NCBI GenBank assembly: GCA_043228905.1
Contig: JBHGNT010000001.1
Span: 11,966,001 to 12,030,000 of the forward strand
Origin: Azolla caroliniana
Lineage: Eukaryota; Plantae; Polypodiophyta
Direction of reading: 5' to 3'
DNA: 64,000 nt
Made by a program: the position numbers and the translations under genes. Shown here piece by piece: positions 4,201-64,000 of the stretch; position 1 is the stretch's first letter; each line of letters starts with the position of its first letter. The notes under the pieces are model-generated. The model saw nothing but the letters and a program-made list of their open reading frames with translations, was not told where the DNA came from and ran no database searches.

Positions 4201-4240
4201 GGGCTAGTGACGGAAAATGAGCTAGCAATCGGCGAACAAA

Positions 4241-4853: not shown

Positions 4854-4868
4854 CCCACTTCTCCACCA
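4850..4868 (-). other. tRNA-Ala-like primer-binding site
   Basis: The minus strand reads TGGTGGAGAAGTGGGGATC 3 nt after the 5' LTR. This resembles the complement of a tRNA-Ala 3' end (...CTCCACCA). Confidence 0.65.
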
Positions 4869-5111: not shown

Positions 5112-5257
5112 CTTATTATTAAATTTTATCTTAGTTTATTTTTATTATAAATTATAATAATATAGTACTTTAATTTGACCTTATCATCTAACATAACAAG
5201 ATTCAAACCCCTAACCTCCTACTCATCACACCAGCTTTTATCAATTAAGCTACAACA
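5112..5257 (-). mobile_element. Degenerate tRNA-derived SINE-like remnant
   Basis: Minus strand has A-box-like TAGCTTAATTGATA (~5239-5252) and B-box-like GGTTTGAATCT (5199-5209) at tRNA spacing, followed by an AT-rich tail. Confidence 0.45.
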
Positions 5258-6761: not shown

Positions 6762-7216
6762 TATTATAGATCTTGATACTAACGTAAGCTTAAGATAAGG
6801 ATAATGAAAACATAGATAGAAAGGAGAAAGAGAAAGAAGGGTGCCGATCCACCCGACCACCCCCGAGCGAAGGGATCGAGACGGACTCGAGCCTCGATCG
6901 GCGTCCCATACCACCGCCGTGGCGTCGAGTCGTACCTGGTGCTGGCGCGCTCGCTACAAGAGTTGACCCACCACACGAGCAGAGTCTCGATGTAGTCAAA
7001 AGATGATCAAATGAGGGTAGCTAGACCTCTTATTTATAGCGATACCCAAGGCCCCCAGGCAAGTTCACACTTGACCTAATGGGTTGTCTCAATCCCGAGG
7101 ATTAAAAGTAATCCTCCCCTTCTTTACACTCTCATTTAACCCTCACACTTATCCACATGTATAGATTACTACGGTAAATTCTTACCACGGGATATTATAT
7201 GGTCATGCCCGTAACA
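6762..7216 (-). repeat. 3' LTR of the chromovirus
   Basis: Reads TGTTACGGGC...CTATAATA in element sense, with TATA box GCTATAAATAAG near 7029-7040. 6859-7216 appears identical to 13130-13487. Confidence 0.95.
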
Positions 7217-10200: not shown

Positions 10201-10679
10201 ATTGATGGACACGAGGAAACAATCGAGAGGGATTGTTTTTTTACACATTGAATAAAATGCGTACAATCGTTCAGTACAAAAGAAATGGAATGACGAACCC
10301 AATCAATAAATAAAGAAGAGTTTTTATTATAAAACCAGGGATAACCCAGTATTACATCGGTGGTACAAAGATTCATTACATGGAAGTCTACTTCCTCTAT
10401 ATAAGTATCAATAGAAATTCCTAATGAATGAATCGCCCCGTTGATGTATTGTACTCTTCCATCAGCCAAGTGCACCGTGTAGGTGTGATCACTTACGGTG
10501 GGTTGGATTCCCCATATCTGAACCAAACGATCATTCACAAAATTGTGTGAGCTTCCCGAATCAAATAAAAATTGTACGGGAGATCCATTGATATACCCGT
10601 TTGCACGTAGTAAATCATTGGGACCCAATACATAGTGAGGGAAAGAACATTGACAATTACTTAAATGATGTGTATAGAC
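7203..10679 (-). pseudogene. pol: pol polyprotein (PR, RT, RNase H, integrase, chromodomain) with one premature stop
   Basis: Motifs: protease FDSGSS, RT MPFGLTNAP and FLDD, RNase H ETDAS, integrase HHCC and DDE, GPF motif, and chromodomain PERIL...KW...ATWE. ORFs 9639-10628 and 7203-9620 are in the same frame, split by a TGA at 9639-9641. The last codons run through the PPT into the LTR. Confidence 0.95.
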
Positions 10680-11636
10680 CTAAAGGACATTAGGAATCTG
10701 ACCTTTATGGTCTGCAGCTTTAGCTTTGTTGTCGTGCTCTTTCCGTTGGAGCTTTCGACATTGATCTTTTGTATGACCCTTCTTTTTGCAGAATACACAA
10801 AAAGGATGTTGTCGCTTACAATCGCGATCCAGGAATTCGTTGGGTGTCTTGCGTTTCCCAACAAATTGCGACTGCTTAGTCCCGGGCGCTTCGTTGGGTT
10901 TGTTATGGTCCTTCTTCGAAGTGCGTTGATAGCGAAGAACTATTTCAACGGCCTCTTCGAAGGATTTTGGATCCTTATCGTGCACTATCCAGTGATAGTC
11001 CGAATTGGGGATGCCATTGACAAAACAAGCTATCAACCAATTGTCCCCTTCTAGACCCGATTTTTGGATTTGGGTTCTAGCATGGTGAACATAGTCTTCT
11101 AGCGAGGAAAATTTCCTGCTAGAGAGGTTCATTAAAGCTTGTGCTGCCTCGGTTCGAGAGGGAGGTTGCAGAAATTGGCCCTTAAAAACCGTGACAAAAT
11201 CTGTCCAGGTATCGGGCAATTTCCCCATAGTACGGAGGCCACGCCACCAGGCGGCGGCCTTACCCCCGAGTTCTCGACCGACATATGCAATCTTCGTACT
11301 ATCTGGCGTGGGATAGAGCTCAAAATGAGACTCCCATCGTCCCAGCCATGTGCAGATTGCTTCTTCGGTTCTTTCCTTTTTGTCTCCCGTAAATGGCTTA
11401 ACGACAAATGATGGTTCACCTTGTCGCTCATCAGGTCTATTAGTCTCACGTTGTAGACTAATGACACGTGCCTCAAGAGCACTCTGAGATTGCCGAAGTT
11501 CGGTCATCTGTTGAGCGGTGAAACTAAGGTATTGGGTTATTTGTGCCAAATACATCTCAGTGGACATTTGTCCAGGAGGATTCCCTTGAGTTCCTTCCGC
11601 TTGAGCGGATGACATCGGGTCGTTAATTTGAGCCAT
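10680..11636 (-). CDS. gag: Retrotransposon Gag (318 aa)
   Basis: Intact ORF with a capsid-like segment (AAAWW...TWTDF) and a CCHC knuckle CVFCKKKGHTKDQC. Confidence 0.92.
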   Translation of the reverse strand: MAQINDPMSSAQAEGTQGNPPGQMSTEMYLAQITQYLSFTAQQMTELRQSQSALEARVISLQRETNRPDERQGEPSFVVKPFTGDKKERTEEAICTWLGRWESHFELYPTPDSTKIAYVGRELGGKAAAWWRGLRTMGKLPDTWTDFVTVFKGQFLQPPSRTEAAQALMNLSSRKFSSLEDYVHHARTQIQKSGLEGDNWLIACFVNGIPNSDYHWIVHDKDPKSFEEAVEIVLRYQRTSKKDHNKPNEAPGTKQSQFVGKRKTPNEFLDRDCKRQHPFCVFCKKKGHTKDQCRKLQRKEHDNKAKAADHKGQIPNVL

Positions 11637-13021
11637 TAAAGATTATTTCTGGAAAAGAAATAGGATAAGGTCAGAGATATAGTCATAACATCATGTCGTG
11701 ATGTAAACATATCATGGGCGAGCATTAATCGATATCATTATCTCACGTCAATACCCCTCTAGACGTATGAGATGAGGTTCAAGATCAGGTTACTATGGTA
11801 ACACAAAGGTGTTTTAAAAACCATGGGGGTGACAAATAAATGTCTTTCCCTGATCTCTATATCGATTTTTTCATGGTGGCTCCCCGAGGCTCAACCATGT
11901 ATGTTCGCGTCATGAATAGTTTATACACGAAAAAAATGTTAATAATAAACTATGTTTCGGTGCCCACATATGTGGTTTCGGCTCTTTAAGTCCTATTACG
12001 AGGACCCCGAGGTGCACTTAGACCTTAAGTCTAAACATGTGTTATAGGCATATGTATCAAGGATGTTGTATGGTCTTGGTCATATTTGAACTCGAGACCT
12101 CGAGAACAAATACATTAAACACTTGAGCCAACCAAGTAAGTTGCTCTTCTCGAATGCTTAATGTTTGATGCGTATAAGAGATATGCGAGGCAATTGATCA
12201 TATATGTTTTTTTAAAAGAACATATATGTCAAGGGTCCTTATTTCGCCCTCATTTACCAAAACTATGTTGGTACGTTACCTAACCTCAAGTCTCGTAATT
12301 ACGATGGCATACGCCAAAGTGCAACCTAATGGTGAAGCCAAATGAGCCCTTGTTTCGTAGTAGGCTCACGTGGGCCATCACATGGTCACGTCATTACGAA
12401 TGCCTCTCGTAAGAATGAGCTCATGGTGGCATCGTATCCATGTAACGAGGGAGGGATGTTGGATACGCGCGTCATTGGAGCGACCTCACTTGAAGTGGGT
12501 CAAGCCCTACGTACTCAACATCATTTTGGCTATTGGCGTTTCTTTACGTAACAAAATCGAGGTCGTCAACGGGGTTATCAACAATAAAAAAATGTTGAAA
12601 AAGGGATGGTGACAACGCCATTCTCACAAAAATGTAAGGACGGCCACCAACATCCTTTTCCCGACCATGACAACTTTCGATATAATCACGTAATAACGAA
12701 TATACACATATGTTTACTTATCACATATATACGATCAAATACGTATATATGTGACCACATATGCCTATATTAAACATATCGTTATAGTAAATAGCCACAA
12801 ATGATGTGATCGAGATACGTAATCGAGGTATATACCTCTACGCACACGAAACATCCACAAATAAGAGATCATCGTAATACGCAATGGAGGTATAGACCTC
12901 TTACGCATACGAGACCAAACGCATATCGTTTACAACAAATCAAGGTATTAAACTCATACGCAAACGTAACATATGTTCGTGAACGTAATACGTAATTGAG
13001 GTATTAACCTCGTACGCATAC

Positions 13022-13487
13022 GGTCGGGTGGATCGGCACCCTTCTTTCTCTTTCTCCTTTCTATCTATGTTTTCATTATCCTTATCTTAAGCTTACGTTA
13101 GTATCAAGATCTATAATATTTGCCCGACCACCCCCGAGCGAAGGGATCGAGACGGACTCGAGCCTCGATCGGCGTCCCATACCACCGCCGTGGCGTCGAG
13201 TCGTACCTGGTGCTGGCGCGCTCGCTACAAGAGTTGACCCACCACACGAGCAGAGTCTCGATGTAGTCAAAAGATGATCAAATGAGGGTAGCTAGACCTC
13301 TTATTTATAGCGATACCCAAGGCCCCCAGGCAAGTTCACACTTGACCTAATGGGTTGTCTCAATCCCGAGGATTAAAAGTAATCCTCCCCTTCTTTACAC
13401 TCTCATTTAACCCTCACACTTATCCACATGTATAGATTACTACGGTAAATTCTTACCACGGGATATTATATGGTCATGCCCGTAACA
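13022..13487 (-). repeat. 5' LTR of the chromovirus with an inverted U5 segment plus PBS
   Basis: 13130-13487 matches 6859-7216 directly. 13022-13118 is the reverse complement of 6762-6858. Confidence 0.93.
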
Positions 13488-13810
13488 ATCGTGGCTTGTT
13501 ATAGTAATTTTCTTACTATAAACTATATATAATTGAAAAAGCGTTTATTACGGTATATGCTATTTGCAACCAAGAAAGGATCATCATAAATCTTCCAAAT
13601 AAAAAATTGATTCAACTATCTTTCATGTATGTGTGTATTTGAGTAAATTCTTAGAAGACAATGATCGTTTCTATTCAAGTCTTGTTTGTTTACCATATAA
13701 TCATCTTAGAAACTTTACAAGGATTGCAATCAAAGTTTCTGGATCGTTAATCAAAGTTTCTATGAGGAAGTTACAACCAAAGACTTTGTAAATAACAGGA
13801 GACGACCCGC

Positions 13811-15274
13811 TATCGCGAAGTTTCGCAAGTGTCTGTTAGTTGGGCGGGACCACGGGGGTCTTGGACTAGGGAGTACGAAGGGATAGAGAAGACCCGAGGT
13901 TTGCTTTACGACAATACTACTTCCTAGGCTAGGACTTGTTGCCCTTTTTGTGGGGCCGGTGGTTTTCATTAATCATGACTCGTCGAGTTTTCGAGATCCC
14001 TGCACGAGCCAAGTGATCAAATGGGTACAAGCAAAGATGAGCACGCAAAAAGAACACACAAGGGGACGAGAACACAAACACAAATACTCGTACGTCTTTA
14101 TGAGGAGGAGAGGTGCATGGGCATGATAGAACGCTCCCTCGTCACAAGACGTCGAACGTACAAGGAAAGGGACGAGAATACAAACATGAACGCCCGTACA
14201 TCTTTACGAGGAGGAGAGGTGCATGGGCAAGCCCGAACGCCCCCTCGTCACAAGACGCCGAACGTACAAGGAAGACACAAAACACACGCACGAATGCTCG
14301 TACGCCTTTATGAGGAGGAGACGTACATGGGCAAGACTGAACGCTCCCTTGTCACAAGATGGTCGAACGTACAAGGAAGACAAAACACACGCATGAATGC
14401 TCGTACGCCTTTATGAGGAGAGGTGCATGGGCACGCCCGAAACACTCCCTCGTCACAAGACGGCCGAAGGTACAAGGAAGACACAAAACACACGCATGAA
14501 TGCTCGTACTCCTTTATGAGGAGGAGAAGTGCATGGGCATGCCCGAAACGCTCCCTTGTCACAAGACAGTCGAACGTACAAGCAAGACACGTAACTCACG
14601 CACAAATGCTCGTACGACTTTATGAGGAGGAGAGGTGCATGGGCACGCCCGAAACGCTCCATCGTCACAAGACGAACGAACGTACAGGGGACGAGAAATA
14701 AAGAAAGAAAACACGAATGACATTGGCCAAAGAAGTAGATATGTAAGTTCGATTGCAATGCAAGAGTGCCCTTTATAAAATAGGGTTTGATTACAATGTG
14801 GCAACTTCTAGTTAACTACAAGCTCAACAAAACATAAACACTAAATGCCCTTAGGGACAAGAGCAAATCCGAACACGGAGCTCGGAACACGAACACAAAG
14901 AAGACCAGCACATGAGCACAACACACCACAAAAAAGCCGACCCCAATGAACCACGACCACCCGAACAACGAGTACACGGGCTTGCAACGACGAACGGGGG
15001 CGAAACAACGCCGAAGCAAGGAGGCTCGGGCTCACGAGCACCGTAAATGAACCGAGTAGTTTGAGTGCCAACACGAAGAAGACGAGCATGTGGCGATGAG
15101 GGGATGAAGGGGTATGAGATGAAAAAAAAATGGTGAAGATGAAGATGACGAGCTCCGAAAGAAAAATGGCGATAGTTTCCTCCTCCCAAATGAGCCCCCC
15201 TTGACCTCCTTTTATAGGAAAAAAGGAAGGGGGGTCGCCACATTCACCACTCTCGAGCACGCCACATCACGACA
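13811..15274 (-). mobile_element. Probable solo LTR related to 17216-17894, containing a tandem array
   Basis: Shares GGGCGGGACCAYGGGGGTCTTGGACTA near its left end and the TCACGACA right terminus with 17216-17894. Minus-strand CCTATAAAAGG TATA box. The flanks (CCGC / ACGT) do not form a clean TSD. Confidence 0.6.
14070..14697. repeat. Tandem array of ~6 x ~104 bp
   Basis: CTCGTAC-like anchors at 14087, 14193, 14297, 14400, 14503 and 14609. Confidence 0.88.
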
Positions 15275-15409
15275 ACGTGGTTACTTGATCGAAGCCCATC
15301 ACCTCTACGTGTGTCGTGCTTAGTCTCGTGTTCAGAAATAACCGGTTGATCGCTGTAGCAACAACCTGCATAGTTCGTATCAAAGAGGAGAAGAAGAAGA
15401 AGTTCAACA

Positions 15410-18400
15410 ATGAACACTTAGATGGGAAGCGCTCTTCCTTCCACGAAGCTCGATAGAAACAACTTTGCATCTTGGGAGTATAAGATCCACCAATAGCTTG
15501 TCGGTCAAGGCTATTGGAGTTATGTCTAAGGAGCAAACAAAAATCAATCCAACCCAACACATGTCGACTACCCAGCTTGGGAGGAAGTGGCGAATCGTGT
15601 GTTGTATTCCCTTGTATCATGCATCGGCTTAACACATCGGTTCAAAGCCATTCGGTCAACAGTCCTTGCGAGGGAGAATTCTCCCTCCTTCGATCTCCAG
15701 TCGATGTTGCTGGTCGAGGAGAATCATGTTCGAACAAGAAGCAATTCGCAAGAAGGAAAAAAAATCTATTCAAATTTTGATGGAGGAAGAGGGCACGGTT
15801 GTGGAAGAAGAAGAAGATTCGGTCAAGCCTGACACAACCAAGAGCAACAAGACGTTTCAAACGCACGAGGCGGAGCGTCCGGAAGAAGGGGGAGCAATCA
15901 AGTCGGACCCAGCCGTCAAAACAATCCCGCCCAGTGCGGATACTATGGTAAATTCAGACACTATGAGGCAGAGTGTCGAAAAAAGAAGAGTGGGTCAGCC
16001 TCCACAAGCCGACAACTCACGAAAAACGCCTCCAACTCCGACTATGACAATCATGGCCGAATATTTGTGATGAGGCATAGAGAGAACTCCATGACAACCT
16101 CCAACCTAACCAACACCTCCAAACCAGAAGATGTATGGTTTGTCGACTCGGGTGCATCCAACCACATGACATCCCACGAGGATTGGTTCAAGGAGCTACG
16201 AAAGCCCGAATGACCCGGCTATGTGGAAACTAGGGATGACTCAATTCACCCCATTCAACATGTTGGCAATGTCCCATTTGGGGAAGAGCAACCAAACCTA
16301 CATCAAGAATGTTCTGCATGTTCCCACAATAATAAAGAATGTGGTCTCAGTTGGACAAATAGTAGAACAAGGCATGCAAGTCTGATTCAACGATAGAGGA
16401 TGCTTATCGAAAAGGAAGGCCGACTTATCGCTCGTGGTTGGAGAGAAGGTGGGATGTTCATCCTCTATTCCCACGAGATGAACTTGGCAATGTATGCCAA
16501 GGGCCAGAGAGCCAACGCCGATATAGAGTTGTGGCACAAGAGGATAGACCACAACAATCTACAAAAGCTCAAGGGAATGCAGTCGAACGGAGTCGTCATC
16601 GGACTCCCGACCCTCACTGAAGAGGAAATTGTAGGCATGTGCGAAGCTTGCCAATTCGGCAAACAACACCAGCAACCGTTCCCAAAAGAGAGGAACATAA
16701 GCAAAGGGATCCTAGATGTAATACATTCAAATGTATGGGGACCAGCCCAAATGGCAACATTGGTGGTTGCCGATACTACATAACATTCATTGACGACTTC
16801 TCCAAACATACCTGGATCTACCTTATGCGGCAAAAGAGCGAAGTGTTTGGACACTTCCAAAATTTCATAAACGAAGCCGAAAAGCCAATCAGCCGGCATG
16901 TCTAATGCTTTCGATCGGACGACGGCAAGGAGTATTTCTTGGGTGCCTTTACAACATACCTTCGACAAGAAGGAATTCGGCAGGAGTTTACCAGCCGACA
17001 CACACCTCAGTAGGACAGAGTAGCCGAACGCAAGAACTGGCATATACTCAAGGTGGCAAGGGCAATGATGAATTAGAAACATCTGCCAAAGTCATATTGG
17101 GCTGAAGTGGCGAATATGGCAGTCTATCTGATGAATCAATGCACAACATCAGGAGTGCATTATGTTACCTCCTGCGAAACGTTCTATGGGACGAAATCGG
17201 ATCTATCGCATACGTTGTCGCGTTGCTACGCACGTGCGTGGCGAAGGGCGGGACCATGGGGGTCTTGGACTAAGGAGTAGAGGAGAAGGAATCGGACATG
17301 GAATGCTTTGCTCAAGAAGAAGAAGAATGAACAAGAGATTAACTCGAACAAGAGGAAGATGGAGACAAGATGATCAACAAGATATATTAAAACGAAATGA
17401 ACGATTACAAAATGGAGGCCGCATAGGTTGCACCAAACGACTACGCGAAACCCTAACTGACGAAGATAAAGATAAAGATAAAGAAACCCTAACCCTAACC
17501 CTAACACTCGACCTATGTGGTATACCTCGCACACTCAAAATAGGCAACCCCCACAATGGTGCCTTCCCTCTCCTTTTATAGCACAAGGAGGGAAGACCGT
17601 TTACAAAAGTGAGACTAAAATATCCCCTTTCATTTAAAGGGGATATTTGCCTTGATTTGGGGAGGGTGAGATTGATGGCCCCCTTAACTCCCACCTCCTC
17701 ACAAACAACTAGGTACCTATGTACCGCATAGTACCTCTCTCTCTCTCTCTCTCGCGTGGATGTGCGTACAAGACCACATCACCTTTATACCTTTATTACT
17801 ATTACAAATACATTATGTACGTGTGCAACGTTGCACATCGCTCTGTGGCTCTCGTTGCTCGGGTTTCCGCTCGTGGATAAAAATCTTCACGACAACGTAC
17901 ATGTTCCCGACGAGACGTGGCAGAAGCTTGATCCTAAGTCGGAGAAATGTATACTTGTAGGGCACTCAATCAAGCGAAAAGGGTATACGTGCTTCAACCC
18001 CTCCTCCAAGAAGGTTCGAGTGAGTAGGGATGTCGTTTTTGACAAGTCGACATCCTAATATATAGTTGAGCCAGCCCCATTTGACACAATCGAAACCGAG
18101 TTCGACACAGATGTAGAGAAGGACGATTGACCGTGACCCACATAAGAGAAAAGTTCAACCTCAACCAGGTTGACTGGACCACAAGAGCCTCCAAGCGATC
18201 AAAGAACATCGCGGCCGCGTCCAAAACAGGACAAAGGCAAGGCCAAAATGCCTGAGTACAAAGACTCGGATGGAAATGAATCGACTCACTCACCCGACAA
18301 TGAGTATAATGGTGGATTGGATGTTCTCAGTGTGGGGACACCACGGGGACCTCGTCGCTCCACCCGAGAGAAGAACGCAGTCAGTCGATTCGGCTACAAT

Positions 18401-20257
18401 GACTACATGGCATATTATTATGCATTCATGATGAAGGTGGCGTGGCGACAATCTGAGAACTGGAATTTTTTTTTGAAGCCACAAAAGACCCTAGATGGGT
18501 CAAAGCGATGAATAAGGAGATGCAAACACTCTGCAAGAACGAGACATGGGATCTCGTCCTTTCTTCAAACCATCAAAAGGCAATTAGATGTCGGTGGATC
18601 TTCAAGGTAAACCACAAACGTTGATGGCACTATCCATCGGTACAAGGCCCGACTTGTGGCGAAGGGTTACGCGTAGATGCACGGTGTTGACTAGGAAGAG
18701 ACCTTTACCCCGATGGCAAAGAAGACTACAATTCGAACCGTGATCGCGCTTGCAGCAGCAAAAAGGTGGCACCTCCTCCAAATGGACGTAAAGAACACCT
18801 TTCTTTAAGGTGAGTTAGATGAGGAGGTGTACATGATACAACTCCCTGGATTCAGGTCGACTACGCATCCGATTGTTGTCTGCCGACTCAAAAAGCCTCT
18901 CTACAGTGTCAGACAGGCACCGAGAGCATGGCATTCGAAGATAACACAATATCTTCATAAAATTGGCTTCAACATGTCCAAGTTTGACAACTCTCTGTTC
19001 ATGTAGAGCGATTGCAGAGGACAAGTATTTATCATCATTTATGTGGATGAGTTGGTCATAGGAGGAGAGCATTTAGCAAATATTGAGCACATCAAGAAGC
19101 TCCTCTCCAGCCAATTCGAAATGACCGATATGAAGGAGCTCCATTACTTTCTAGGAATAGAAGTAATTCGGACTCCAGATGTCATAATGCTTTCTCAAAA
19201 GCACTATATCCTCAATCTTCTTTAGAAGTTTGGGATGACACAGTGTAAGCCCGTCACTACCCCTCTCTATCGAAATCTAAAGCTAGATGCCGACTCCGAC
19301 ACTAGAGAGTGTGAGCTGATGCTCTATCGTCAACTAGTTAGAAGCTCATCTACCTCATGATTACCCGACCCAACCCAAGTTACCCAATTGGCCTCCTTAG
19401 CCAGTTCATGCAGACACCAAGAAACATCCACTTGGACTGTGGTAAGCGACTGATACGTTATGCAACTGGGACGATGGATTTCGGCATCCTTTACAAGTCG
19501 GCCACACCAATGCCGACTATGCTAGGTACAGAGTCCATCGAAAAATCGACATCCAGATTTGTTTTCTCTCTCGGTAGTGGCGCCATATCGTGGAGTAGTA
19601 AGAAACAGCCGACAATTGCACTATCGAGCACCGAAGCTGAATACAGGGGCGCGACCGTAGCCAGATGTGAAGATGTTTGGCTCAAGAGAATATTGAAGGA
19701 CCTGGGCATTCTCATCAAGGATCCAATTCTCCTCTACTGTCACAACATGAGCAATATTCACCTCGCTCGGAACCCAGTCTTCCATGCTCGGACTAACCAC
19801 ATCGAAGTGCACTATCACTTCATCCGAGAGTGTGTTCTGGCTGGGGATGTCGACCTGCAACACATCAACACAAATTTGCAGATGACCGACATCTTAACCA
19901 AGGCCTTGGGAGTCGACAAGCTACGACAGTTCACAACGAACTTGGGTCTTTCAACCGTCGACCAGCAAAGCTTGAGAACATAGTCTAGGATACTCAAGTG
20001 TGTGAACACCCCACCTCCTTGTATAGTAACTAGTGTGTCATAGAAGTTAATGTCCTATGAAAAATACTCTTTAAGTAGTTAAGACATGACCTCTTTCCCA
20101 AGAGGTGGTACTAGTGAGAGAACTTAGAGAGAAAATGACTACATAAACACCTTCTCCTTCTCTTTATAACCGTTGTTGGCCATTCTTGATTTCCTTGTTA
20201 ACACACACACACACACACAGTTCTTCTGCTGCACAGAATCATCACCGATTCTTTACA
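15410..20257 (+). mobile_element. Decayed Ty1/copia element 1 (deleted gag, INT, RT, RNase H, 3' LTR remnant)
   Basis: Motifs KLDRNNFASW, WFVDSGASNH, LWHKRI, CEAC, YVDE, SWSSKKQ and HIEVHYHFIRE. Many stops and frameshifts. 19971-20257 is LTR-like with the PPT missing. Ends are approximate. Confidence 0.85.
17216..17894 (-). mobile_element. Solo LTR (679 bp) inserted in the integrase of copia 1
   Basis: TGTCG...CGACA termini and a 4-bp TSD ACGT (17212-17215 / 17895-17898). Similar to the LTR at 63049. Confidence 0.85.
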
Positions 20258-21765
20258 GATAGTTTAGAATATGAGTATGATGTTGTGCACAATGAATTAT
20301 ATTACTTGGTTCATTTGTTGGGTTACACACAATGTGATTGAACTTGGGAGCATATGGATAATCTCACTAGCACCAAGTACATTGTACCTAAATTAATTTC
20401 ATCATTAATATCTTGATAATCCAAGTCCTCGTTTATGCATTACGACTCATGGAACTCGTCATCAAAGGAAGGGGATAATATCATGAACTTCTATGTAACA
20501 TAACATAATTGTATAATATCATATTCATCATAAAAAGTATTGGTTATCCTTTTACATATGATATTTATTATAACTGCTTATAGGTAATCTATTTTGTAGA
20601 CTTAATATTACAAGATGTTGCCTCCTCATATAAGCTAATGTATGGTCGCTGATATGGCATGCTTGCATGGATGCAACGACAATCATGCATAATGCGAGGT
20701 GTTGAATGGGTCCAACATGCTATATAAGCAAGATCTCTAATTATTCATGAATGATTCCAATTCAATTTGCCAATCTTTTACATATTTATGTAATGTTGTT
20801 GTTCTCGTGAATATAATTGCATTTTTTCTCTTATTTCTCAGTTCTTCCATTCTATCTTGTTCTCGTCTATGACCTAGAATTCTAGGACACTCATTAACTA
20901 TGCAAGGATCCTGGCAATTAAAATAGCTTATTTCATGCCAAAACATCTCTCATTACCCAAATATTACACACTTTTCCCTTGACTTGAGACTTGTGCATAT
21001 AATCGTATTCAGGTTTTGCAAGGTGTGCTACAATATGAGCCAACCACAATTGTTGGGGTAGGAATGCGAGTGGAGTTGTGCATGGAACCCTAGGAGGTGA
21101 CTTATAGTGTTCTACACATGGATTTTATTTCTATCTCCCATTAGAGGTCTTCCAATAGTTTTCAAGGCTATGCATCACAAAAAGCGTAATGTGCTTTGTG
21201 TTGGTGTAACAATGGGCATTTATGTCTTGTGCGATGGACATAGGATGTAAGGCAATGGATGTTCTCATAGATGGTATATCCAATGGTTCCCTCTACTTTC
21301 ATTGTATGGTGAGTGCTCGTAGGGAACTATGTGATTTTCCCCCGAAGATTCAAGGCCGCCTTAGTACACGTCTACAAATATATCATGCAATCCTTGAGCT
21401 ACATCACTACAGTGCACAAATGGTTGAATTTTGAAATTGACTAGCGATGAGAATATTTTATATGGTGGGATCATAAAAACTGCTTGTAAACTTATTCATA
21501 AGTTTTTCATCAATCATCTCAACACTCTCTTCACATTTATTATCAAAGTTTTTGGTTTCGCATATGTAATCTTGAACTGCCTTCCTCTGCTCATGTTCTA
21601 GAGAGAAGATTTAGTTTATTTATTCCACCATGTCCCTCTTGTTGTCAAAAAAGGCCGACTCCACCCAATGTGTATCTCCAGTGTGAATACATTACCCAAT
21701 TAGGGCTTTACTATATAAGCCCAACTATAACATTGTAGCAAAGAGAGAGAGAGAGAGTGTGTGTG

Positions 21766-22227
21766 TGTTACCTGGACAAGTATATATATGTCGGAGTCGG
21801 ATCGACAGTTCGGATCAATGACTTAACAGATAGCCGAATAAGGCATAGTTAGTTACGAAGTTTTGTAATTCTTGATAATTATAGGCAGTAGGATTTCTTG
21901 ATGAGAAAAGGCGTTCGGGTTACCTATAAAAGGAACCAAAGGCATTGTAAAAAGCTATCGTTGTATTTAGTAATATAAAGTTTGGTTAGGAAATCTCTGT
22001 GTACGAATTGCTTTTTGCAATGCCTTTGGTTCCTTTTATAGGTAACCTGAAGGCCTTTTCTCATCAATAAATTCTACTGCCTATAATTATCAAGAATTAC
22101 AAAACTTCGTAACTAACTATGCCTTATTCGGCTATCTGCTGAGTCATCGATCCAAACTGTCAATCCGACTCCGACTTCGACCTCGAACATCCTTCTGACT
22201 CTGACGTATCTATACTTGTCTGGGTAA

Positions 22228-22229
<2 letters not shown>
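21766..22229. repeat. Long inverted repeat (fold-back of an LTR 5' part)
   Basis: Arms at ~21766-21955 and ~22010-22229 are near-complementary. Outer ends are TGTTACC and GGTAACA, and each arm carries CCTATAAAAGG. Confidence 0.92.
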
Positions 22230-22265
<36 letters not shown>

Positions 22266-22472
22266 GAGAGAGAGTTTTTGGAGGGAATAACTGAGTCTAC
22301 CATTTGAGCTTTAACGGTGTCACTGTGTACTATGCTTCTCATCTTCTTGCTTCCTGAATATGTTGTTAGAGTGCAACTCTACTTTCTTAGTTTATCTGTG
22401 TTATTTGTTAGACACGATTGCTACAGGTCCTCACACCATCTTCCGCTGCATAACATCTCCATATTCAACATA

Positions 22473-25400
22473 TGGTATCAGAGTGACCTTGCTGTCAGAC
22501 GACAATGAATAGCAAAAAACTGAGAAGAGAAGCTATCCGGTTGAGAGAAAAGACTAGGCCAACAACATCCACTTTCTAGAAAAACGGCGACACAGTTTGG
22601 CACAAGTGTGGAAATCCGGAAGTTCGACGGGAAGAACTTCACTCTATGGAAAGAAATGATGCAAGACGTGCTCATAATCCAAAGACAGTTCAAAGCCATC
22701 TTGCACAACACCTGACCAACTTTGATGTCTATTGAAGAGTGGAGATCTATGGAGGACATGGCACACTCCACCATCTGGATGCACCTGGCTGAAAATGTCT
22801 ATTTCAACATGGCAACAGAGACGTTGACATTCTCATTGTGGGAGAACTTCGGGTTGTTTATGAGAAGTCCTCATCGAAACTCATATTGATCCAAAAGTTG
22901 TTCAAAATGAAGATTAGAGAGACTAATCCAGCGACCTCCCACATCAACACCTTCAGCCGGGTGTTGTCCGAACTCTCCTCCCAAGGGAACAACTTCAAAG
23001 AAGAAGTTAAGGCCCTTTCCCTCCTTTTGAGATTGTTGGCAAGCTGGGAGGTATTCTGCACGACATTCTCCAACAGTTGTCCAAATCTCAATTTGGACGA
23101 AGCAATCGGACAAGTCCTAATGAGGACATTCGACGATGATCGATGGGCCTCACCATTGACAATTTTGCAGAATTTCACCACGCGATCAAGCCATCCAGAA
23201 GAACCGACCGAAGCACCAGTTGACTGAAGAGGAGGGACGATCAACAATGGTCAAACTCAAGGAATGCTTGGTCGAACGCCTTTTGCACACATTGCAGAAA
23301 GGTTGGCCACAATGTTTCTGAATGATGGTCGATAAAAAGAAAGGAGAATGGTCGGCGATTCAATTGGACATAAGGAAAATCCAATTTGAATCATTCTCCT
23401 ACCGTCAACCAAGTCAATATTGCCGAATCATGGCTTGGAGAAGTCCTTTCCTTGGAAGACTCTTCGACTGGTGAAGTCCTATACAGCGTGTAAGACGTAT
23501 GAACATGGATGCTGAACTTTGGTGCCACATTTCATATGAACCCCAACATCGAATGGTTTTCGGACTATTTGGCTGGAGCCGACGACACAGTTCGACTCGA
23601 CAACAGGCAGGAGTAAGTAATCATAGGGATCGGTGATGTCCCCATTCAATTGCCAAATGGCTATTCAATCACCCTGCCCCAAGTCCGGCACGTACCCGAG
23701 CTACGACGAAGTCTGGTCTTCATTGACATGCTAGCCAAAGCCGGGTACCGGACAACTCTTAGTGAGTCGTCATGGATGATCATCCAAGGAAACATGAAAA
23801 GAAGATGTAGATGCAAGTACAGCAACCGGTATCCACTAATAGCGATCAATCAAGAGGGCACAGTGAACGTCGTTGAATCACATGACTCAAATTTATGGCA
23901 TGGCCGACTCAACCATATGTCTCAAGCCGGATTAGACTGGCTTATGGAAATCGGCTTCATCTTGAAGCTCTAGACAAAGACGGACTTCTGCGAGCATTGT
24001 CATTACGAGAACACTTTCCACTATGAGATGGTACGACAACCCCTAGAACTGGTGCACATCGATATTTGTGGGCCGATGCCCGAAAGATCACTAGGAGGCT
24101 CCCGATACTTCATCACCTTAGTCGATGATTGTACTTGGAAGGTTTGGGCTTATTCAATTAAGTCCAAAGACGAAGTGTTTGATGTTTTCACTCGGTGGTT
24201 AGCCAAAGTCGAAAATAGATCCAGCCACAAAGTGAAGACACTAAGGTTGGACAACAATGGTGAATACACCTCCAAAGCCTTCGCCAGGTAACTGTCCGAA
24301 AAAGGGATCCGGAATCAGAAGACCGTTGTCACAAAAATACGACAAAGATATGTTGAACTTGAGGTAGGACCCCAGAGCCTCCAACCAAAGGATACCAAAT
24401 TCGTGCATTTATACTTTAAGAATTAATGGAAACGAGAAAGTTTGGTAAATTTCATTAGCAAAGGAAAAGAAAGTTACTATCTATCTTAAGATTGGGATTA
24501 CAGAAGTTTAGGTTTAAAGAGATTAATAGATAAGAAAAATTAGGGTTTTTTGAGAGATATATTTTCTGTAAGGAAAATTAGGGTTTTTGTGAGAGATAGC
24601 TTCAATCCCTTAAGGAAAAAATTACCCTAATAATAATAATAATCCCTCCCTTACATTGTGCTTTCCATCCTTATATAGTGACGGGTGAGGCTTCACACAT
24701 AGCAATCCATGTTTTTTCTAACTATAGACTTCATGCTTTTTCTTCTAACAATAGCATTCTTGCATGTGAGATGTGCATGAATAGCTTTTTCGATCATGCG
24801 TTATCTTTTAACTAAAATTTTATGCACTCTATGTTCAGTTGCATGCGTCCACACATGATCTTTACTTTAGTTGGCATACTTCTCTCCAGTTGCATGTGTC
24901 CACACGTGACCTTTACTTTAGTTGCAAGCGACCGTACATGACCTTTACTTTAGTTGGCATACTTCTCTCCAATTGCATGCATCCACACATGAACTTTACT
25001 TTAGTTGCATGCGACCGTATAGTTCGACCTGTCCATGATTGGTACTATCATCCCGCTCGATCCGTGCGTCATGACCATCCCAACAGTCCCTTTTCGGACG
25101 TTCCAAACCGTTCCAAAATCTTTTCGAGCAATTTCATCCACATCTGTTCATCCAAGAAGTTCCACCGCATTCGTTTTTCTGGACAACTCGGCCGAAATGA
25201 CTCCAATTGTTTTGTGCTCCAAACACACATATATGAAATAATAGGTTCTGGGTCTGCTTACATACTACTGGGTCCGACATTATCCTATCAATGTGGGATA
25301 TCTCACAGTTCTGTTTTCCCCATCTTCTCAAACTTCATACTCACATAACTTGATACTTAGTTGTCTATTTCATATGTAGTAAAATGCGTTCGTAAGCTCT

Positions 25401-28000
25401 TAAAGATGTCCATCTTTTCATACCAAACCATTAAGCTAATCTAAAATAATTATTTCATTATTTTTCATATCGTGTGTGAAGAACCACATGACACCGTTCC
25501 CTACACCCCGATGTAGAAGGGTGTAGCAGAACAGATGAACCAGACCATCTAGGAGAGGGTGACTGCAATGTTCTACCAAGCCGCAATATAGCTAGAGTTT
25601 TGGGCCGAAACAATGTAGATGTCAATGGCAGACTACTTGATAAATTTGTCGTCATCAAGAGTAATTCGGCTCCAAGTGCCACAAGGACTATGGTAAGGTA
25701 GACAACCGACATACGATAGGCTCCTACTTTCAGATGTGAAGTCTATGCCTTCATACCAAGGGAGAAAAGGACCAAGTTGGCATCCCATGCGACAAAATGC
25801 ATTTTTCTCGATTACAAAACCGATGGGGATTTCGAATACAAGATATGGAATCCAAAAAATCGGAAATTGATCCAAAGCAGCGATGTTGTCTTCAATGAAG
25901 ACTCAACACTCTCCAGCCAATCCCAACCGAAAATCGGCAAAAGAGTCACATTCAAACTTTGTGGAAATGAATCTAACGACAATGAGCCGATTATTCAACT
26001 CGAATTAGAAATTCGGCAAAATGTCAAAGTTGAATCGACCAACAACCCCTTGTCGAATCTGAATTGACAAAAGGTCCAACAACCGACTCCGAATCGGCTA
26101 AAATATTGACAAGATCCAAATCGGTTAAGGTGACCAATGGTCAATCCGAACTGCCCAATGCACAACAACACGATCAATTGCTCCCGAAGAGGAGGATTAT
26201 CCAACAACAATGCATGGCAATTGCTAGAGGGGATCATCTCAAGGAACTCTTGAAGACAGTTCAAGTAATGTCAATTGGTCGATCGTTCCAATTGAAGAAT
26301 CCGAACCAACCATATCGGCACCAAGGAGATTCGGACGAGTTCGAAAGCCAACTGAGTTCTATGAACTTGACGTGGACTATGTCAACTATACGGATGTTGG
26401 CGAACCTAGCTTGTAGGAGGAAACTGTATCCACACCAGATGCCGAGATATGGCTTCAAACCATGCATTTGAGATGAACTTGATCAAAGAAAATAACACAT
26501 GGGAGGTGGTCGAACTACCTATAGGAAGGATGCCGCTACCCTGCAAGTGGGTCTACCGATACAAATATGTATCCGGTTTGGATAGACCCAAGTACAAAGC
26601 TCGACTCGTCGCCAAGGGATTCAAACAAGAACACGGGGTCGACTATGACAAGATCTTCTCGAACTACTAGTAGGAAGGAAGTCGCTACCCTGCAAGTGGG
26701 TCTACCAATACAAATATGTATCTGGTTTGGATAGACCCAAGTACAAAGCTCGACTCATCACCAGGGGATTCAAACAAGAACAAGGGGTCGACTACGATGA
26801 GATCTTCTCGATGATAGTCAAGATGACCACCCTCTGGCTCCTACTTGGGATCATGGCGACGGAAGAGCTAGAGCTTCAACAACTCGATGTCAAGATGACC
26901 TTCCTACACAGAGATCTCGACGAAGATATTTAGATGTCTCAACCGGCAAGCTTCATGGCGATGGGGGAGCAAGGTCACCTCGTTTGCAAGTTGAAGAAGA
27001 GCCTATATGGCCTAAAGCAAGCACCGAGAATGTGGTATCAGAAGTTTGATACCTACATCCGGTAGCTCAATTATAGCCGACCGGACTCTGACCCATGTAT
27101 GTATATCCAAAAACTAGCCAACGAGTCCCATATCTATTTGATCCTATATGTGGACGACATGCTCATTGCCAGAATAAATTGAGCAGAGGTTGGAGAAATA
27201 AAACGGAGGGCCTTCATGATAAATTTTCCATGAAGGAGCTCGGACAAGCCTGACATATCTTGGCTATGCGGCTAGAGCGAAGTTGGATGACCAAGACCCT
27301 CCTACTCTCCTAGTCTGACTATATCTGGAAGGTGTTAAGACAATTCAACATGGAGAACACAAAACTGACACTGACTCCGCTTTCGACGTTGTTCAGACTA
27401 TCAGGCATAGACTCTCCATCGACCGACAAGAAGAGAGAGCTCAATAAAAAGACACCCTACATGTCGGCCATAGGAAGTATCATGTACACAATGGTGGCAA
27501 CCCGACCAAGAATGTAGGGGTCGTCAGCCGGTACATGTCAATCTCAGGACAGAAGCATTGGGAGGTTGTGAAGAAAAGCTTTAGGTACCTATGAGGGACT
27601 AAAGATGTACAACTAACTTTCGGATCAGCCAATCCACCAAAGTCGAGGGCTATATTGACTCTGACTACGCCGGAAATCGGATAATCGGAAGTCAATGCCT
27701 GGCTATATGTTCACTTGTGGCGGTGTCATCATATCTTGGAGTTTGAAGCTTCAAGAGTACACGACCCTCTCAACAATAGAGGCCAAGTACATAGCCTCCT
27801 TGGAGGCAGATAAGGAATCGATCTGGATGCATCGACTATCGGCTTATTTTTCGGCAACGAGCCAAATCAACCATCCGATGTTGATACTGTATTGCGACTC
27901 ACAAAGCGCAATCTACCTCATCCGAAATCCGGTCTATCATGCGAAAACAAAGCATAGGTGTGGTACCATCACATCCAGGAGCTCATAATGGAGAAGACGC
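22473..28000 (+). mobile_element. Decayed Ty1/copia element 2 (Tnt1/Tork-like), internal region
   Basis: Met-i PBS TGGTATCAGAG at 22473. Gag KFDGKNFTLWK, integrase LVHIDICGP, RT YKARLVAKGF and YVDD, RNase H YCDSQSAI. Heavily disrupted. Confidence 0.88.
24327..25493 (-). mobile_element. Solo LTR (1167 bp) inserted in the integrase of copia 2
   Basis: TGTCA...TGACA termini and a 4-bp TSD CCGT (24323-24326 / 25494-25497). The copia sequence resumes afterwards. Short internal tandem repeats at ~24837-25015. Confidence 0.85.
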
Positions 28001-28261
28001 TCAAGCGGGAAGCTGAAGGACGACTAGAGGCCGAAAGCTAGAATAAGACTCGATCCGATCTAGACGTACTAGCCGATTTGGCCGACCGGACAAGCCACTC
28101 CGGACAATACATTATCCGAACAACTAGCCGAATTATGCTAGATTTAGACTTAACCTCTACCGATTCGGCCATAAGCCGATCCACTTGTAATTATACAACT
28201 AGAATTTTAGATTCAAATTGTAATCTAGCTTTATGAGGGAGATAACCCCAACAAAGTGAAT

Positions 28262-29028
28262 ACCCTTGTCACGAAAGGGTTCAAACAAGAGCATGGGGTT
28301 GATTGTGGCGAGATATTCTCACCAGTAGTCAAGATGACCGCCCTCCAACTCTTACTAGGATTTGTGGCACAGAACACCTCGAGCTAGAGCAACTGGATGT
28401 AAAGACGACATTCCTACATGGAGATCTGGAAGAAGACATTTACATGTCTCAACTGGCAGGCTTCACGGCGACAAGGGAGGAAAGTCACCTCGTATGTCAG
28501 CTGAACAAAAATCTCTATGGCTTGAAACAAGCATCGAGGATGTGATACCATAAGTTTGACTCCTACATCAGGCAACTTGGATACCGTCGATCCGACTATG
28601 ACCCATGCATGTATATTCAGCAATTGGCTAACGAGTCTAGGATTTATCTGATCCTACATGTCGACGACATGCTGATTGCAGAAAGCAACCAAGCAGAGAT
28701 CGGAAAGCTTAAGTGGAGCCTTCATGACAAGTTCGCGATGAAGGAACTCGGACAAGACTGCCACATATTGGGCATGAGGATTGAGGGAAATTGGATGAGC
28801 AAGATTCTCTGACTCTCCCAGTCTGACTATATCCAAAAGGCGATGAAGCACTTCAACATGGAGAATGCGAAGCTAGCACCAACACCGCTTCTGACGTCGA
28901 TTAGACTATCGGACAAAGAATCTCCTTCAACGGACAAGGAGAGAGAGCTTAATTGAAAGATTCCCTACGCATCGGTCGTAGGAATTATCATGTATGCAAT
29001 GCGGTGTTCAGCCGGTACATGTCAAATA
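28262..29028 (+). pseudogene. Second copia RT fragment, same family as copia 2
   Basis: Motifs QLDVKTTFLHGDLEEDIYM and ILHVDDML. Parallels 26750-27540 and is truncated by copia 3. Confidence 0.8.
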
Positions 29029-34173: not shown

Positions 34174-35303
34174 CACTGTTGTGCTCTAATCTTGCGCCAA
34201 CAAGAATGACAACCACCATTAAGTTTGCCCTAAGTCATATTTATACAAAAATGACTTTTCGGCTATTTACAAATATAGCCCCGATGGACTCTCAGAAACA
34301 TATTTACGAATATGTCCCTTCATCCGGTGAGCACTCCTCACCGGGCCTGCATCATCCTGTGCTTGCCGGGCACTCGTCATCCGGTTCTCACCGGGGTCTT
34401 CCGTAGCCGAGTACTCCTCATCCGGTTCTCACCGGGTCTTCCGTTTCCGGGTACTCCTCATCCGGTTCTCACCGGGTCTTCCGTTGCCCGGTACTCCTCA
34501 TCCGGTTCTCACCGGGTCTTCTCATCCGGAGGGACCTGTTTCCTAACAGTAAAAATTGGGAAATTGAGCCAAGGACCTATAAGCTGCATGAGGTATTTCG
34601 GGTGTAGATCCAAGAGGGGATGGAGCTAGAGAAAGCTACTTGAAACCCTGTAGAATTTTTATGGGACGTGGGAAAAAAAGAAAAAAAACACAATTGTTTC
34701 AATATACAATAAAAATTGGCCGAAATATCATTCAACAGCTGCCATGGAATTCACAAAGATGCAGTTGGTTGTAAATGGAAGGAGGAGGGCTTATATGAAA
34801 CTTGCATGCAGGATTATTGGAGAAAGTTGTGGGCAGTTGAGTTGCCCGAAAATGCAAATCCTTTATTTCGGCTTATCCGCTAACTCCTTAGCCCTGATAG
34901 TGCAGTGCACAAAACCCACTTGACATGGATAACGGTTGCATGCACACAAATTTGGGGATCACGGAATTTGCAGGAAGCTTGGTCAAATGTGGCATTTAAC
35001 GGTCTATGGAACATTTGAAAATAGAGATATCTCAAATGGTACTCAAGGCAAATTCACACAATTGCATATGTCATCACAACTATATGGATTGATCTAGTGG
35101 TATCATTATGTGCACAATTCAAAAACTTGCAACGAGATTCAAAGTCTCAAGAGTTGGCACGAGCACGATTTATCTCACTCTGACAAATCACATCATTGGT
35201 GGACTTCACGTCAAGACATTCGAAGTGGTGCTACTAGCCGCCTCATTAGCTCTACCACTCATTGGCTAGGAAATCACCCATATTGCTTTCGGCGATATGA
35301 ATG

Positions 35304-61519: not shown

Positions 61520-63048
61520 TGTTGAGCGGGCAAGCCCAACATGATCTAGATCGGCTGAATAAGCCAAGAGTCGGATCTGAGTGTAATCGGTAGGCTGTTA
61601 GAGGCCTATGATCCTAGCCTAATACGTAGGTATATTTTTAGGAGTTAGTGTCAATAGCTCGGTATGAGCATTGAAGTACTTGTCAGTACTTCTAACAGTT
61701 CTTTTAAGGACTTGTGTAAAAGTGCTCACAGAGCACATTGAATGTACAAAGTTTTATAGAGCTTTTAAAATTGAGATTATTGTCTTGCTCTCTCTCTCAC
61801 CTACTCCGTGTATTCCATTCTCCATGTTTTGTGTTGCTATTCGGCTGAGTCGGTCGAGATATGTTTAGATTCCACATATTTATCTTTATATGGTATCAGA
61901 GTGTGAGGGTTGAACATCCTTTGCAACTAACAAGAGTTTTCTACACAAACCAAGACCTAACACTCGGTAAGAACCAACAAGAAGAGAAATGGAGAGAGGA
62001 ATGGGAAGATCACTTCTGATGGAGAAGCTTTATAGGAGCAGCTACGCATCTTGGTCATACAAGATGCACCAATACCTGTTAGGGCATGGGTATTGGAGTT
62101 ATGTCAATGGAGCAAATGATGCAATATCAGATTCGACACACAAGGATTTTTCGGCCTGGGAACAATTGGCAAGCAGAGTTCTTTATTGTTTCACATCCAG
62201 TGTCCGTGATCAACTATTGAGCTACATCCGGGACGCCAAGACCCCAAGACCCCAAGAGGCCAAAGGAGGCTTGGGGAACTCTGAAGAAGATTTTCGACGC
62301 GAGCACTATAACTAGAAAGCTTCAGCTTAGGCAGGAGCTGAACAACGTCTAACAAAGAGACATGTCAATGGCTGACTACACCTCCCGGATCAAGGACATC
62401 TGTGACTCTCTTGCCTCCATCAACGTGACTGTCGTGGAGGACGAAATGGTGCAGTTCTATCTCGGAGGATTGACGCAAAAATTTAGATAAATCCGAACAA
62501 CGGTTTGCATGAGAGTTGCAATTGATACTTCTCGTTGAAGAGAACCACGCGGGTATGTCAACGAGTATGCACACCGACAACAAGATGTCGTACACGGAAG
62601 AAATAGGCCCTGTGGTCTTGGTGGACAAGGGAGGTTGGCACGCAATGGAGGCGGCCAATAAGAGCAAAACTGAAGGCATAATTGAAATGCGAACAACAAT
62701 TCTGGACCCTCCAGAAACAGGGGGAGTCAAAGCGGCGCCGGAAACTGGCAAGGAAAGACTGACACGGAATGTTGGTAATGTGGCAAGAAAGGCCATAGGG
62801 AGAGCGAGTGTTGGAAGAAGCGGGCCGATTCGAACAAATCCGGATCCGGTAAGGCCGAACAAGGGAACCGGAAATGGATTGGGCCCAACCTTTAGGATGA
62901 ACCACAAGGCTAATTCGAGGAAGACATGCATCTCGGAACTGAATGAGGTATGGTATGTTGATTCTGGTGCGTCAAACCATATAACGTACGATGAGAAGTG
63001 GTTCTCGTATTTGGAGAAACTGAAACCATCGAGGGTCGTCGAAACCGG
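61520..63048 (+). mobile_element. Ty1/copia element 7 (copia-4 family): 5' LTR, gag and protease
   Basis: LTR 61520-61890 starts like the LTR at 35304. PBS at 61891. Motifs SYASWSYKMHQYLLGHGYW and WYVDSGASNH. Confidence 0.88.
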
Positions 63049-64000
63049 TGTCTTGAAGATTCCGGGCCATGGTGAGAAACCGGGGAATGTCGGAAGAATT
63101 GGTGGGGTGGAGCATGTGCACTCACCCTTGTACAAAGGGTGTAGGTGATAGGGGTACCTTTATGGCGCCGAGTAGGAGTTAAGTCGGGACAGAGAATCCC
63201 ATGTAAATCGGGATTTATCCCACATTGTTACGCATCCCTCTCCTTGTTCTATAAAACGAAGGGAGGGTCCCTTGTAGAGGGGTTGCCCATTTTGAGTTAG
63301 GAGGGTATACCGTTAGATTTAGGGTTTGCTAGTTCTTGGTCTTCATCTTTCTCTTATTCCCTTGGCAGCTTCCTTCTTCTTCTTACTTTCTTGTTTTTGG
63401 TTAGGGTTCTTCGCCTTCTTCTTCTCATTCGTGTTTGTTTAGGGTTGAGTTCGATGAAGAGCTTGTATGTTTAGAGGGGTTTGCTTCTGCTCAGTCTCCT
63501 ATGCAAGTCCCCGCTCGGCGCGATGAGCCCGAGAGCTCCCCAATCGGCGGCTTGGCAGCAGACGGTTGTTGTAACCTAACCTACCTTGGTCCGGCTTGAA
63601 GCTGGAGTTGTACCTGGCTCTTGTAATTATATATATAAAAGGTTGGGCATATTTGTGTTTTTGTTGGTGTCGGATGCATTTCTTTCCCTTTGTTTCTTGT
63701 ACATAAGAGGCGTGTGTTGAGTCGGTGTTTCGAGCGTGGTCTCTCTCTCTCTCCCTCTCTCGTGTTCGGAAGGCGCCAGTATGCGTCCGAAATCACTCCA
63801 GTTTGCGCCGCAACCGGTACAACCGGAACTGGTGAGAACTCGGCTTCTCGACACCCATCTCTTCCTCATTTGAGACGCCTATGGTCCCCCCCCCCTTTCG
63901 ACACGTACTCGCGGATTACCTTGACATCTTTGGTGAACCCGATGTGAAAGGGCAACAAGGGAGGATGGAGTCAGAAGACGATAACTTCGCGGAGATGGTG
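63049..64000 (+). mobile_element. 5' end of a Ty3-type element: LTR 63049-63926 and tRNA-Trp PBS 63931-63948
   Basis: TGTCTTGAAGAT...TTGACA, similar to the reverse complement of 17216-17894. TGGTGAACCCGATGTGAA resembles the complement of the plant tRNA-Trp 3' end. The element runs off the window. Confidence 0.82.

What the first reader, a model, noticed from the sequence alone, without database searches (positions are those of the whole stretch)
17212..25497. LTRs inserting at 4-bp CpG-centred sites inside older retrotransposons
Seen: solo LTR 17216-17894 has TSD ACGT and solo LTR 24327-25493 has TSD CCGT. The element at 63049 follows CCGG, and 13811-15274 is flanked by CCGC / ACGT. All are NCGN, all have TGTC...GACA-type ends (one mutated), and three sit in copia coding sequence. 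Known: most plant LTR elements make 5-bp TSDs with weak sequence preference. As I recall, 4-bp TSDs and Trp priming occur in the Phygy/Selgy-type Ty3 lineages of non-seed plants; this needs verification. Inference: the integrase prefers CpG, possibly methyl-CpG, which would steer insertions into silenced TEs. The sample is only four sites.
Basis: partly seen in the sequence, partly recalled or inferred. Interest (0 to 1): 0.7.

Follow-up and report, generated by a model that had tools for sequence, protein, structure and literature searches.

The report
CpG-targeting Phygy-like plant retrotransposon LTRs
These are remnants of a plant retrotransposon family that almost always inserts at a CG pair and duplicates four bases, a habit already published for the moss Phygy lineage to which it likely belongs; nothing here shows that the CG must be methylated.

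Summary
Two solo LTRs (17216-17894, 24327-25493) have exact 4-bp TSDs, and only a 4-bp duplication restores the host copia frame. 13811-15274 has unmatched flanks, so no TSD. All four LTRs tie to tRNA-Trp-primed Ty3/gypsy elements. Seventy-seven metagenome loci gave 82 unique half-sites: 64 have a central CG (background 3.5%), 13 TG/CA, 5 other. TG/CA occurs at the same rate as decay of a CpG inside the LTR. The motif refines to VCGB (5' T in 2 of 128). A near-complete relative (L043) has no chromodomain or archaeal RNase H, and its closest named relatives are liverwort elements. Neumann et al. 2019 already list Phygy as 4-bp NCGN with tRNA-Trp priming. Steering into TEs was not supported: 3 of 4 sites in copia is expected by chance (P about 0.3), and flanks are not richer in TE coding sequence than window controls. 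Methyl-CpG dependence is untested. Verdict: new member of a known kind.

The parts
13811..15274 (-). LTR A, lone LTR of 1464 bp with internal ~105-bp tandem units; U5 end mutated (TATC on + strand); likely recombinant of two copies
   Evidence: 74-81% identical to the LTR of L043, which carries PBS-Trp, gag and pol
13807..13810 (.). left flank of LTR A, CCGC (NCGN, does not match the right flank)
15275..15278 (.). right flank of LTR A, ACGT, in the leader of a copia element whose 5' LTR was not found
13842..13875 (-). 34-nt U5 motif shared by LTR A and LTR B (32 of 34 identical)
   Evidence: its core was the probe
17216..17894 (-). LTR B, solo LTR of 679 bp, TGTC...GACA, high-copy family
   Evidence: 77-79% identical over full length to PBS-bearing LTRs in L012, L059, L065
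17212..17215 (.). TSD ACGT, left copy
   Evidence: junction read without differences in run X1
17895..17898 (.). TSD ACGT, right copy
   Evidence: junction read without differences in run X2
24327..25493 (-). LTR C, solo LTR of 1167 bp, TGTC...GACA; a separate family with few contigs at this terminus, Trp-primed
   Evidence: one X1 contig continues from this LTR end into the same 4-nt spacer and Trp PBS as LTR D; no convincing alignment to A, B or D
24323..24326 (.). TSD CCGT, left copy
25494..25497 (.). TSD CCGT, right copy
63045..63048 (.). 5' half-site CCGG of element D
63049..63926 (+). LTR D, 5' LTR of 878 bp of an element that runs off the window
   Evidence: (TATA-region alignment to LTR B, score 77 against shuffled maximum 29)
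63931..63947 (+). primer-binding site of tRNA-Trp type after a 4-nt spacer
   Evidence: same PBS after 12 of 75 readable LTR 3' ends in loci; the assignment to tRNA-Trp is recalled, not from a tRNA search
63965..64000 (+). start of gag of element D
   Evidence: matches the gag N-terminus in L067
15420..19980 (+). decayed copia element hosting LTR B at the start of its SH3-like domain
22474..29020 (+). decayed copia sequence hosting LTR C in its integrase core
61890..63048 (+). copia gag-protease region interrupted by element D

Best explanation
The four LTRs are remnants of tRNA-Trp-primed, chromodomain-free Ty3/gypsy retrotransposons, likely of the Phygy lineage, whose insertions duplicate 4 bp centred on CG (consensus VCGB), likely because the integrase reads the CG step itself, without needing it methylated. 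Shown: 4-bp spacing, CG centre, avoidance of T next to the CG, Trp-type PBS, domain content of a relative. Inferred: the integrase kinks the target at the central base step, as the foamy-virus integrase does at VYRB, and adds base-specific contacts that narrow YR to CG. Inferred: B and C became solo LTRs by recombination between the two LTRs of one element, and A by recombination between two different copies, which deleted the DNA between them. Inferred: the TG/CA sites are CG sites deaminated after insertion. Nesting in copia follows from where CpGs are, not from a separate targeting step.
For: Paired TSDs and frame restoration at B and C. Half-sites: CG at +2/+3 of 3' flanks in 49 of 61 and at -3/-2 of 5' flanks in 15 of 21, which fixes the duplication at 4 bp without needing paired ends. 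Outer base A 76, C 31, G 19, T 2 of 128, against 37% T in background. Central TA, another YR step, in only 1 of 82. CpG just inside the LTR end decayed in 9 of 61, flank CpG in 8 of 57, Fisher p = 1.0. L043: PBS-Trp, overlapping gag and pol, RT-RH-INT, no chromodomain or second RNase H hit. Phygy definition in PMC6317226. PFV consensus VYRB (PMC4176367 passages). Drosophila ZAM subgroup targets CGCG (PMC5408687 passages) in a genome recalled to lack CpG methylation. No excess of TE-coding flanks.
Against: No Physcomitrium Phygy sequence was available, so the phylogenetic membership test is open (REXdb files too large to read). In short-read loci with both LTR ends in flank, only 1 of 10 had matching 4-mers; I attribute this to assembly through collapsed repeats, but did not show it. 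The loci are 74-82% identical to the window's LTRs and may come from a related species. 5' and 3' half-sites of one insertion may both be counted (at most 21). LTR C is linked to the Trp PBS by one contig only. Flanks are poorer in CpG (3.55%) than VCGB-anchored window controls (4.4%, p = 0.002), which could hint at a lean towards CpG-depleted, long-methylated DNA, although the one window is a weak control and short-read assembly favours unique flanks. No methylation data were seen.
Confidence: 0.75

Rival explanations
1. The integrase prefers methylated CpG and so lands in silenced DNA.
For: TSD CpGs were evidently methylated at some time (13 of 82 are TG/CA). Flanks are less CpG-dense than VCGB-anchored controls. 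Phygy domains are reported among families enriched in liverwort centromeres (PMC12885004 passage), and Phygy nested in Tcn1 is common among repeated nested pairs in moss (PMC6911290 passage). A 1992 paper title on CpG methylation and retroviral integration appears in a reference list (paper not held).
Against: Decay of flank CpG equals decay inside the LTR, as expected from methylation after insertion. TE-coding flanks 24 of 75 are no higher than random window positions, 93 of 300. No chromodomain or other extra Pfam domain in L043 pol. CG-centred targeting exists in Drosophila.
Confidence: 0.15
2. The elements are TatI-like or an unnamed sister lineage and only resemble Phygy.
For: TatI also has 4-bp TSDs and tRNA-Trp priming (4 elements). 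No direct tree with Phygy references could be built.
Against: TatI carries an archaeal RNase H in 100% of elements; L043 pol shows a single RNase H region at E up to 0.01. NCGN is reported only for Phygy.
Confidence: 0.08
3. The CG belongs to the LTR end, or is a chance or selection artefact of four sites.
For: TGTC...GACA pairs with matching 4-mers occur 24 times in the window by chance. The LTR ends are CG-rich and ACGT is palindromic.
Against: 5' LTRs end at the same GACA and continue into the PBS spacer, not NCGN (12 loci); 3' LTRs start after the polypurine tract, not NCGN (16 cases). The outer bases vary, and p is about 3e-60.
Confidence: 0.02

Closest known systems
Phygy (non-chromovirus Ty3/gypsy, REXdb; Neumann et al. 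2019, PMC6317226)
   Same: 4-bp NCGN TSD, tRNA-Trp PBS, no chromodomain, no aRH, coding sequence filling nearly all of the internal region, length about 9 kb.
   Different: Defined as species-specific to Physcomitrella patens. Here the host is another plant, likely non-seed (copia relatives named from the fern Adiantum at 55-60%; pol relatives from the liverwort Riccia at about 50-65%). The motif is refined to VCGB with T avoided and a weak G just outside (33 of 82), which the passages read do not report.
TatI (REXdb)
   Same: 4-bp TSD and tRNA-Trp PBS.
   Different: TatI has an archaeal RNase H; none found here. No NCGN preference reported.
Selgy (REXdb)
   Same: 4-bp TSD, non-chromovirus, overlapping gag and pol.
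   Different: tRNA-Ala primer and about 5 kb length; here Trp and about 9 kb.
Prototype foamy virus integrase target VYRB
   Same: 4-bp duplication, symmetric consensus with the same outer-base rule V..B and a central YR step (PMC4176367).
   Different: The foamy-virus consensus is weak and accepts any YR; here the centre is CG in about 80% as read and about 93% if TG/CA are counted as decayed CG. Works like it; not a member of that family.
Drosophila ZAM/Tirant errantiviruses
   Same: Ty3/gypsy elements with a CG-containing palindromic target, CGCG (PMC5408687).
   Different: Different clade with env and AGT/AnT ends; here TG...CA ends and no env.

Membership tests
Phygy | 4-bp TSD | tested here: met
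   Paired at B and C with frame restoration; CG offsets at both LTR ends give length 4.
Phygy | NCGN target motif | tested here: met
   64 of 82 half-sites CG, 13 TG/CA, 5 other.
Phygy | tRNA-Trp primer-binding site | tested here: met
   Window 63931, 12 loci, one contig for LTR C. Identity of the tRNA is recalled from the plant tRNA-Trp 3' end.
Phygy | Ty3/gypsy order GAG-PROT-RT-RH-INT without chromodomain | tested here: met
   L043 pol: RVT_1, RT_RNaseH, Integrase_H2C2, rve, no Chromo, while the window's chromovirus does hit Chromo. Protease is seen in Riccia relatives, not as a Pfam hit in L043.
Phygy | No extra ORF; coding sequence spans nearly the whole internal part; 7.7-10 kb | tested here: met
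   L043 internal 2045-7797, ORFs 2048-7734; about 8.8 kb if the 3' LTR equals the 5' LTR. One element only.
Phygy | Clusters with Physcomitrium Phygy in RT/RH/INT phylogeny | not testable with these tools
   REXdb sequence file too large to read. The quick tree shows only a clade with Riccia elements far from chromoviruses.
TatI | Archaeal RNase H domain | tested here: not met
   No second RNase H family at E up to 0.01 in L043 pol.
Selgy | tRNA-Ala primer-binding site | tested here: not met
   12 of 12 PBS-bearing loci are Trp-type (the script looked for this type, and the other 63 readable ends were unique flanks).
Chromovirus (Galadriel, Tekay, Tcn1) | C-terminal chromodomain | tested here: not met

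The most novel reading that the evidence does not exclude
A chromodomain-free plant Ty3/gypsy integrase reads methyl-CpG directly in its target duplication, so that a lineage spread from mosses and liverworts to this host uses the host's silencing mark as its landing signal.
Probability: 0.15. Interest if true: 0.75.

Novelty: new member of a known kind. Interest (0 to 1): 0.3.

Why it matters
Strong sequence specificity is rare among plant LTR retrotransposons; Phygy was the one exception noted in the REXdb survey, from a single moss. This shows the same rule in at least three LTR families of another plant, sharpens it to VCGB, and supplies an element with open gag and pol frames (L043) whose integrase could be assayed on methylated and unmethylated CG. 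If methylation mattered, it would be a new targeting route; if not, it is a naturally CG-specific integrase and a modest extension of known biology.

Tried and rejected
No whole genome is held for this window, so no genome-wide TSD logo. The PBS pattern found 0 matches in viral contigs, and the L043 pol found no confirmed relative there. Laying runs on the whole of LTR B gave no terminal flanks, because internal variants filled the table. Paired TSDs from short-read loci were mostly unusable (1 of 10 matched). Host species not determined: cluster look-ups gave no plant names, the chromovirus search gave only distant named hits and the Atlas gave no useful taxa. Rfam found 0 matches in the window. 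Earlier scan findings: none. A link to fungal Ylt1 elements was considered from the DUF4100 hit and memory, but the passages read did not test it. The careful tree did not finish; only the quick tree is cited. A 5-bp TSD was rejected. Pure bendability was rejected as sufficient, since central TA is 1 of 82.
Full report
Observation. LTR B (17216-17894) carries ACGT on both sides and LTR C (24327-25493) CCGT on both sides; the fifth bases differ. Because TGTC...GACA pairs with a matching 4-mer occur 24 times within 3 kb in this window, I tested the host frame: of assumed lengths 3 to 6, only 4 bp keeps the copia frame through both junctions, giving at B the motif seen intact in the paralogue at 37766-38437. 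Contigs of public runs read B's left junction (X1) and right junction (X2) and C's left junction (X1, X3) without differences, and other copia copies skip from about 17211 to 17895, that is, lack the LTR. X1 or X3 may be the source of this DNA, so this is not independent. LTR A (13811-15274) has CCGC and ACGT, which is not a duplication; the copia to its right has no 5' LTR in the self-comparison, so A is likely a recombinant of two copies (inference). Element D begins at 63049 after CCGG; its LTR ends at 63926, followed by a 4-nt spacer, a Trp-type PBS and gag.

Family links. A and B share a 34-nt U5 motif and B and D share the TATA region, both above shuffled scores; C shows no convincing alignment to the others. 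An exact scan with the shared motif returned 77 metagenome loci. A aligns at 74-81% with the LTR of L043, B at 77-79% over its full length with PBS-bearing LTRs, and D with L067, whose gag start matches. For C, one X1 contig continues from the LTR end into the same spacer and PBS, and a second C-type site seen in all four runs reads ACGT. Summed depth over LTR B is mostly thousands to hundreds of thousands against about 10-50 for junction contigs; depth is not copy number, but B is evidently a large family.

Target motif. Of 77 loci, 12 LTR 3' ends ran into a PBS, 63 into flank and 2 were unreadable; 2 duplicate flanks were dropped. Of 61 unique flanks, 49 have CG at +2/+3, 8 TG or CA and 4 other, against 596 CG in 17198 background positions (p about 3e-60); with exact GACA ends only it is 48 of 58. 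Of 38 LTR 5' starts, 16 followed the polypurine tract and 22 followed flank (21 unique): 15 CG, 5 TG/CA, 1 other. CG lies at +2/+3 on one side and -3/-2 on the other, which gives a 4-bp duplication independently of pairing. The base 5' of the CG, counted on both strands, is A 76, C 31, G 19, T 2 of 128, against 37% T in flank background, so the motif is VCGB; G is mildly enriched just outside it (33 of 82). The CpG just inside the LTR end has decayed in 9 of 61 copies and the flank CpG in 8 of 57 (p = 1.0), so TG/CA sites fit deamination after insertion. Against this: only 1 of 10 loci with both ends in flank shows matching 4-mers, probably from short-read assembly through the repeat; the loci may come from a related species; and up to 21 insertions may be counted twice.

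The element. L043 holds a 5' LTR (511-2044) after CCGT, a Trp PBS, gag (2048-4237), an overlapping pol (4216-7734), a polypurine tract and the start of the 3' LTR. Pfam finds RT, RNase H and integrase, DUF4100 in gag, and no chromodomain or second RNase H. Named relatives among the 120 listed are from Riccia, at about 50-65% identity. A quick tree of 39 rows places L043 among Riccia and unnamed elements, far from chromoviruses. The host is likely a non-seed plant: Adiantum proteins are the commonest named relatives of a window copia at 55-60% where best, which places but does not name it.

What is known. Neumann et al. 2019 (PMC6317226; passages; Additional file 5 whole; files 1 and 3 unreadable) state that Phygy elements prefer NCGN and list 186 elements with 4-bp TSDs (100%) and tRNA-Trp PBS (81%). 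Selgy uses tRNA-Ala; TatI has 4 bp and Trp but an archaeal RNase H. Phygy is also annotated in a liverwort genome (PMC12885004, passages), and 4-bp TSDs of Phygy are confirmed in PMC6911290 (passages). PMC9002660 and PMC13469084 only list the name (passages). Searches for NCGN with retrotransposon, Phygy and CpG or methylation with target sites (listings only) showed no paper that tests methyl dependence or reports VCGB; the library lacks most subscription papers.

Mechanism. The foamy-virus integrase also duplicates 4 bp, prefers VYRB and bends the target at the central YR step (PMC4176367, passages). VCGB is a special case of VYRB. Since central TA occurs once in 82, bending alone does not explain the choice, and I infer base-specific reading of CG. 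Drosophila ZAM-group elements target CGCG (PMC5408687, passages) in a genome that, from memory, lacks CpG methylation, so methylation is not needed in principle.

Steering into TEs. Copia internal sequence holds 35% of the window's bases and 49% of its VCGB sites, so 3 or more of 4 has P about 0.3. Of 75 flanks of at least 150 nt (7 of 82 left out: 6 short, 1 tract-like), 24 hit TE proteins near the site, against 125 of 300 VCGB-anchored and 93 of 300 random window controls. Flank CpG density (3.55%) equals that of random positions (3.3%, p = 0.54) and is below that of VCGB-anchored ones (4.4%, p = 0.002). The controls come from one TE-rich window and favour its own families, and short-read assemblies favour unique flanks, so this is weak either way. 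It gives no support for steering into TE coding sequence and leaves a small opening for a lean to CpG-depleted DNA.

Verdict. A real, strong CG-centred 4-bp target preference in Trp-primed Ty3/gypsy families that meet every Phygy feature I could test. The core claim is published; what is added is another host, several families and the VCGB refinement. Interest 0.3.

Noticed in passing
window 6757-13492: Young chromovirus on the minus strand with 100% identical LTRs and a 5-bp TSD (ATCGT); the last 97 bp of its 5' LTR are a perfect inversion of the matching part of the 3' LTR, and no tRNA-type PBS was noticed there. Template switch, self-priming feature or assembly error is open.
   Followed up: partly
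window 21790-22175: Fold-back with 169-nt arms, 93% complementary, 48-nt loop, just upstream of a copia PBS at about 22474; a possible hairpin-RNA source.
   Followed up: no
window 4217-4853: Array of about eight 76-77-bp units lying between two 113-bp direct repeats (3629-3741 and 4868-4979).
   Followed up: no
window 17199-17211: The host copia lacks about 25-30 bp just left of LTR B compared with other copies, apparently a deletion between short direct repeats.
   Followed up: partly
window 35170-41219: Copia element bracketed by a 135-bp duplication (35170-35304 and 41085-41219, 88% alike) instead of a short TSD.
   Followed up: no
L040 (U5 region): One LTR of the family inserted at ACGC inside the U5 of another copy, just before its PBS: self-nesting at the LTR's own CpGs.
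   Followed up: no
L024, L033, L065, L067: LTRs preceded by a polypurine tract and followed by a PBS: tandem elements sharing an LTR, or assembly collapse.
   Followed up: no
window 46560-53384: Decayed LINE-like coding pieces on the minus strand (RVT_1, zf-RVT).
   Followed up: no
window 56951-56975: Short perfect hairpin starting CACTAC, like the joined ends of a CACTA-type element.
   Followed up: no
P0522, P0524: Plant copia-like RT fragments deposited under an Enterobacter name on a 2.3-kb contig, likely contamination of that assembly.
   Followed up: no
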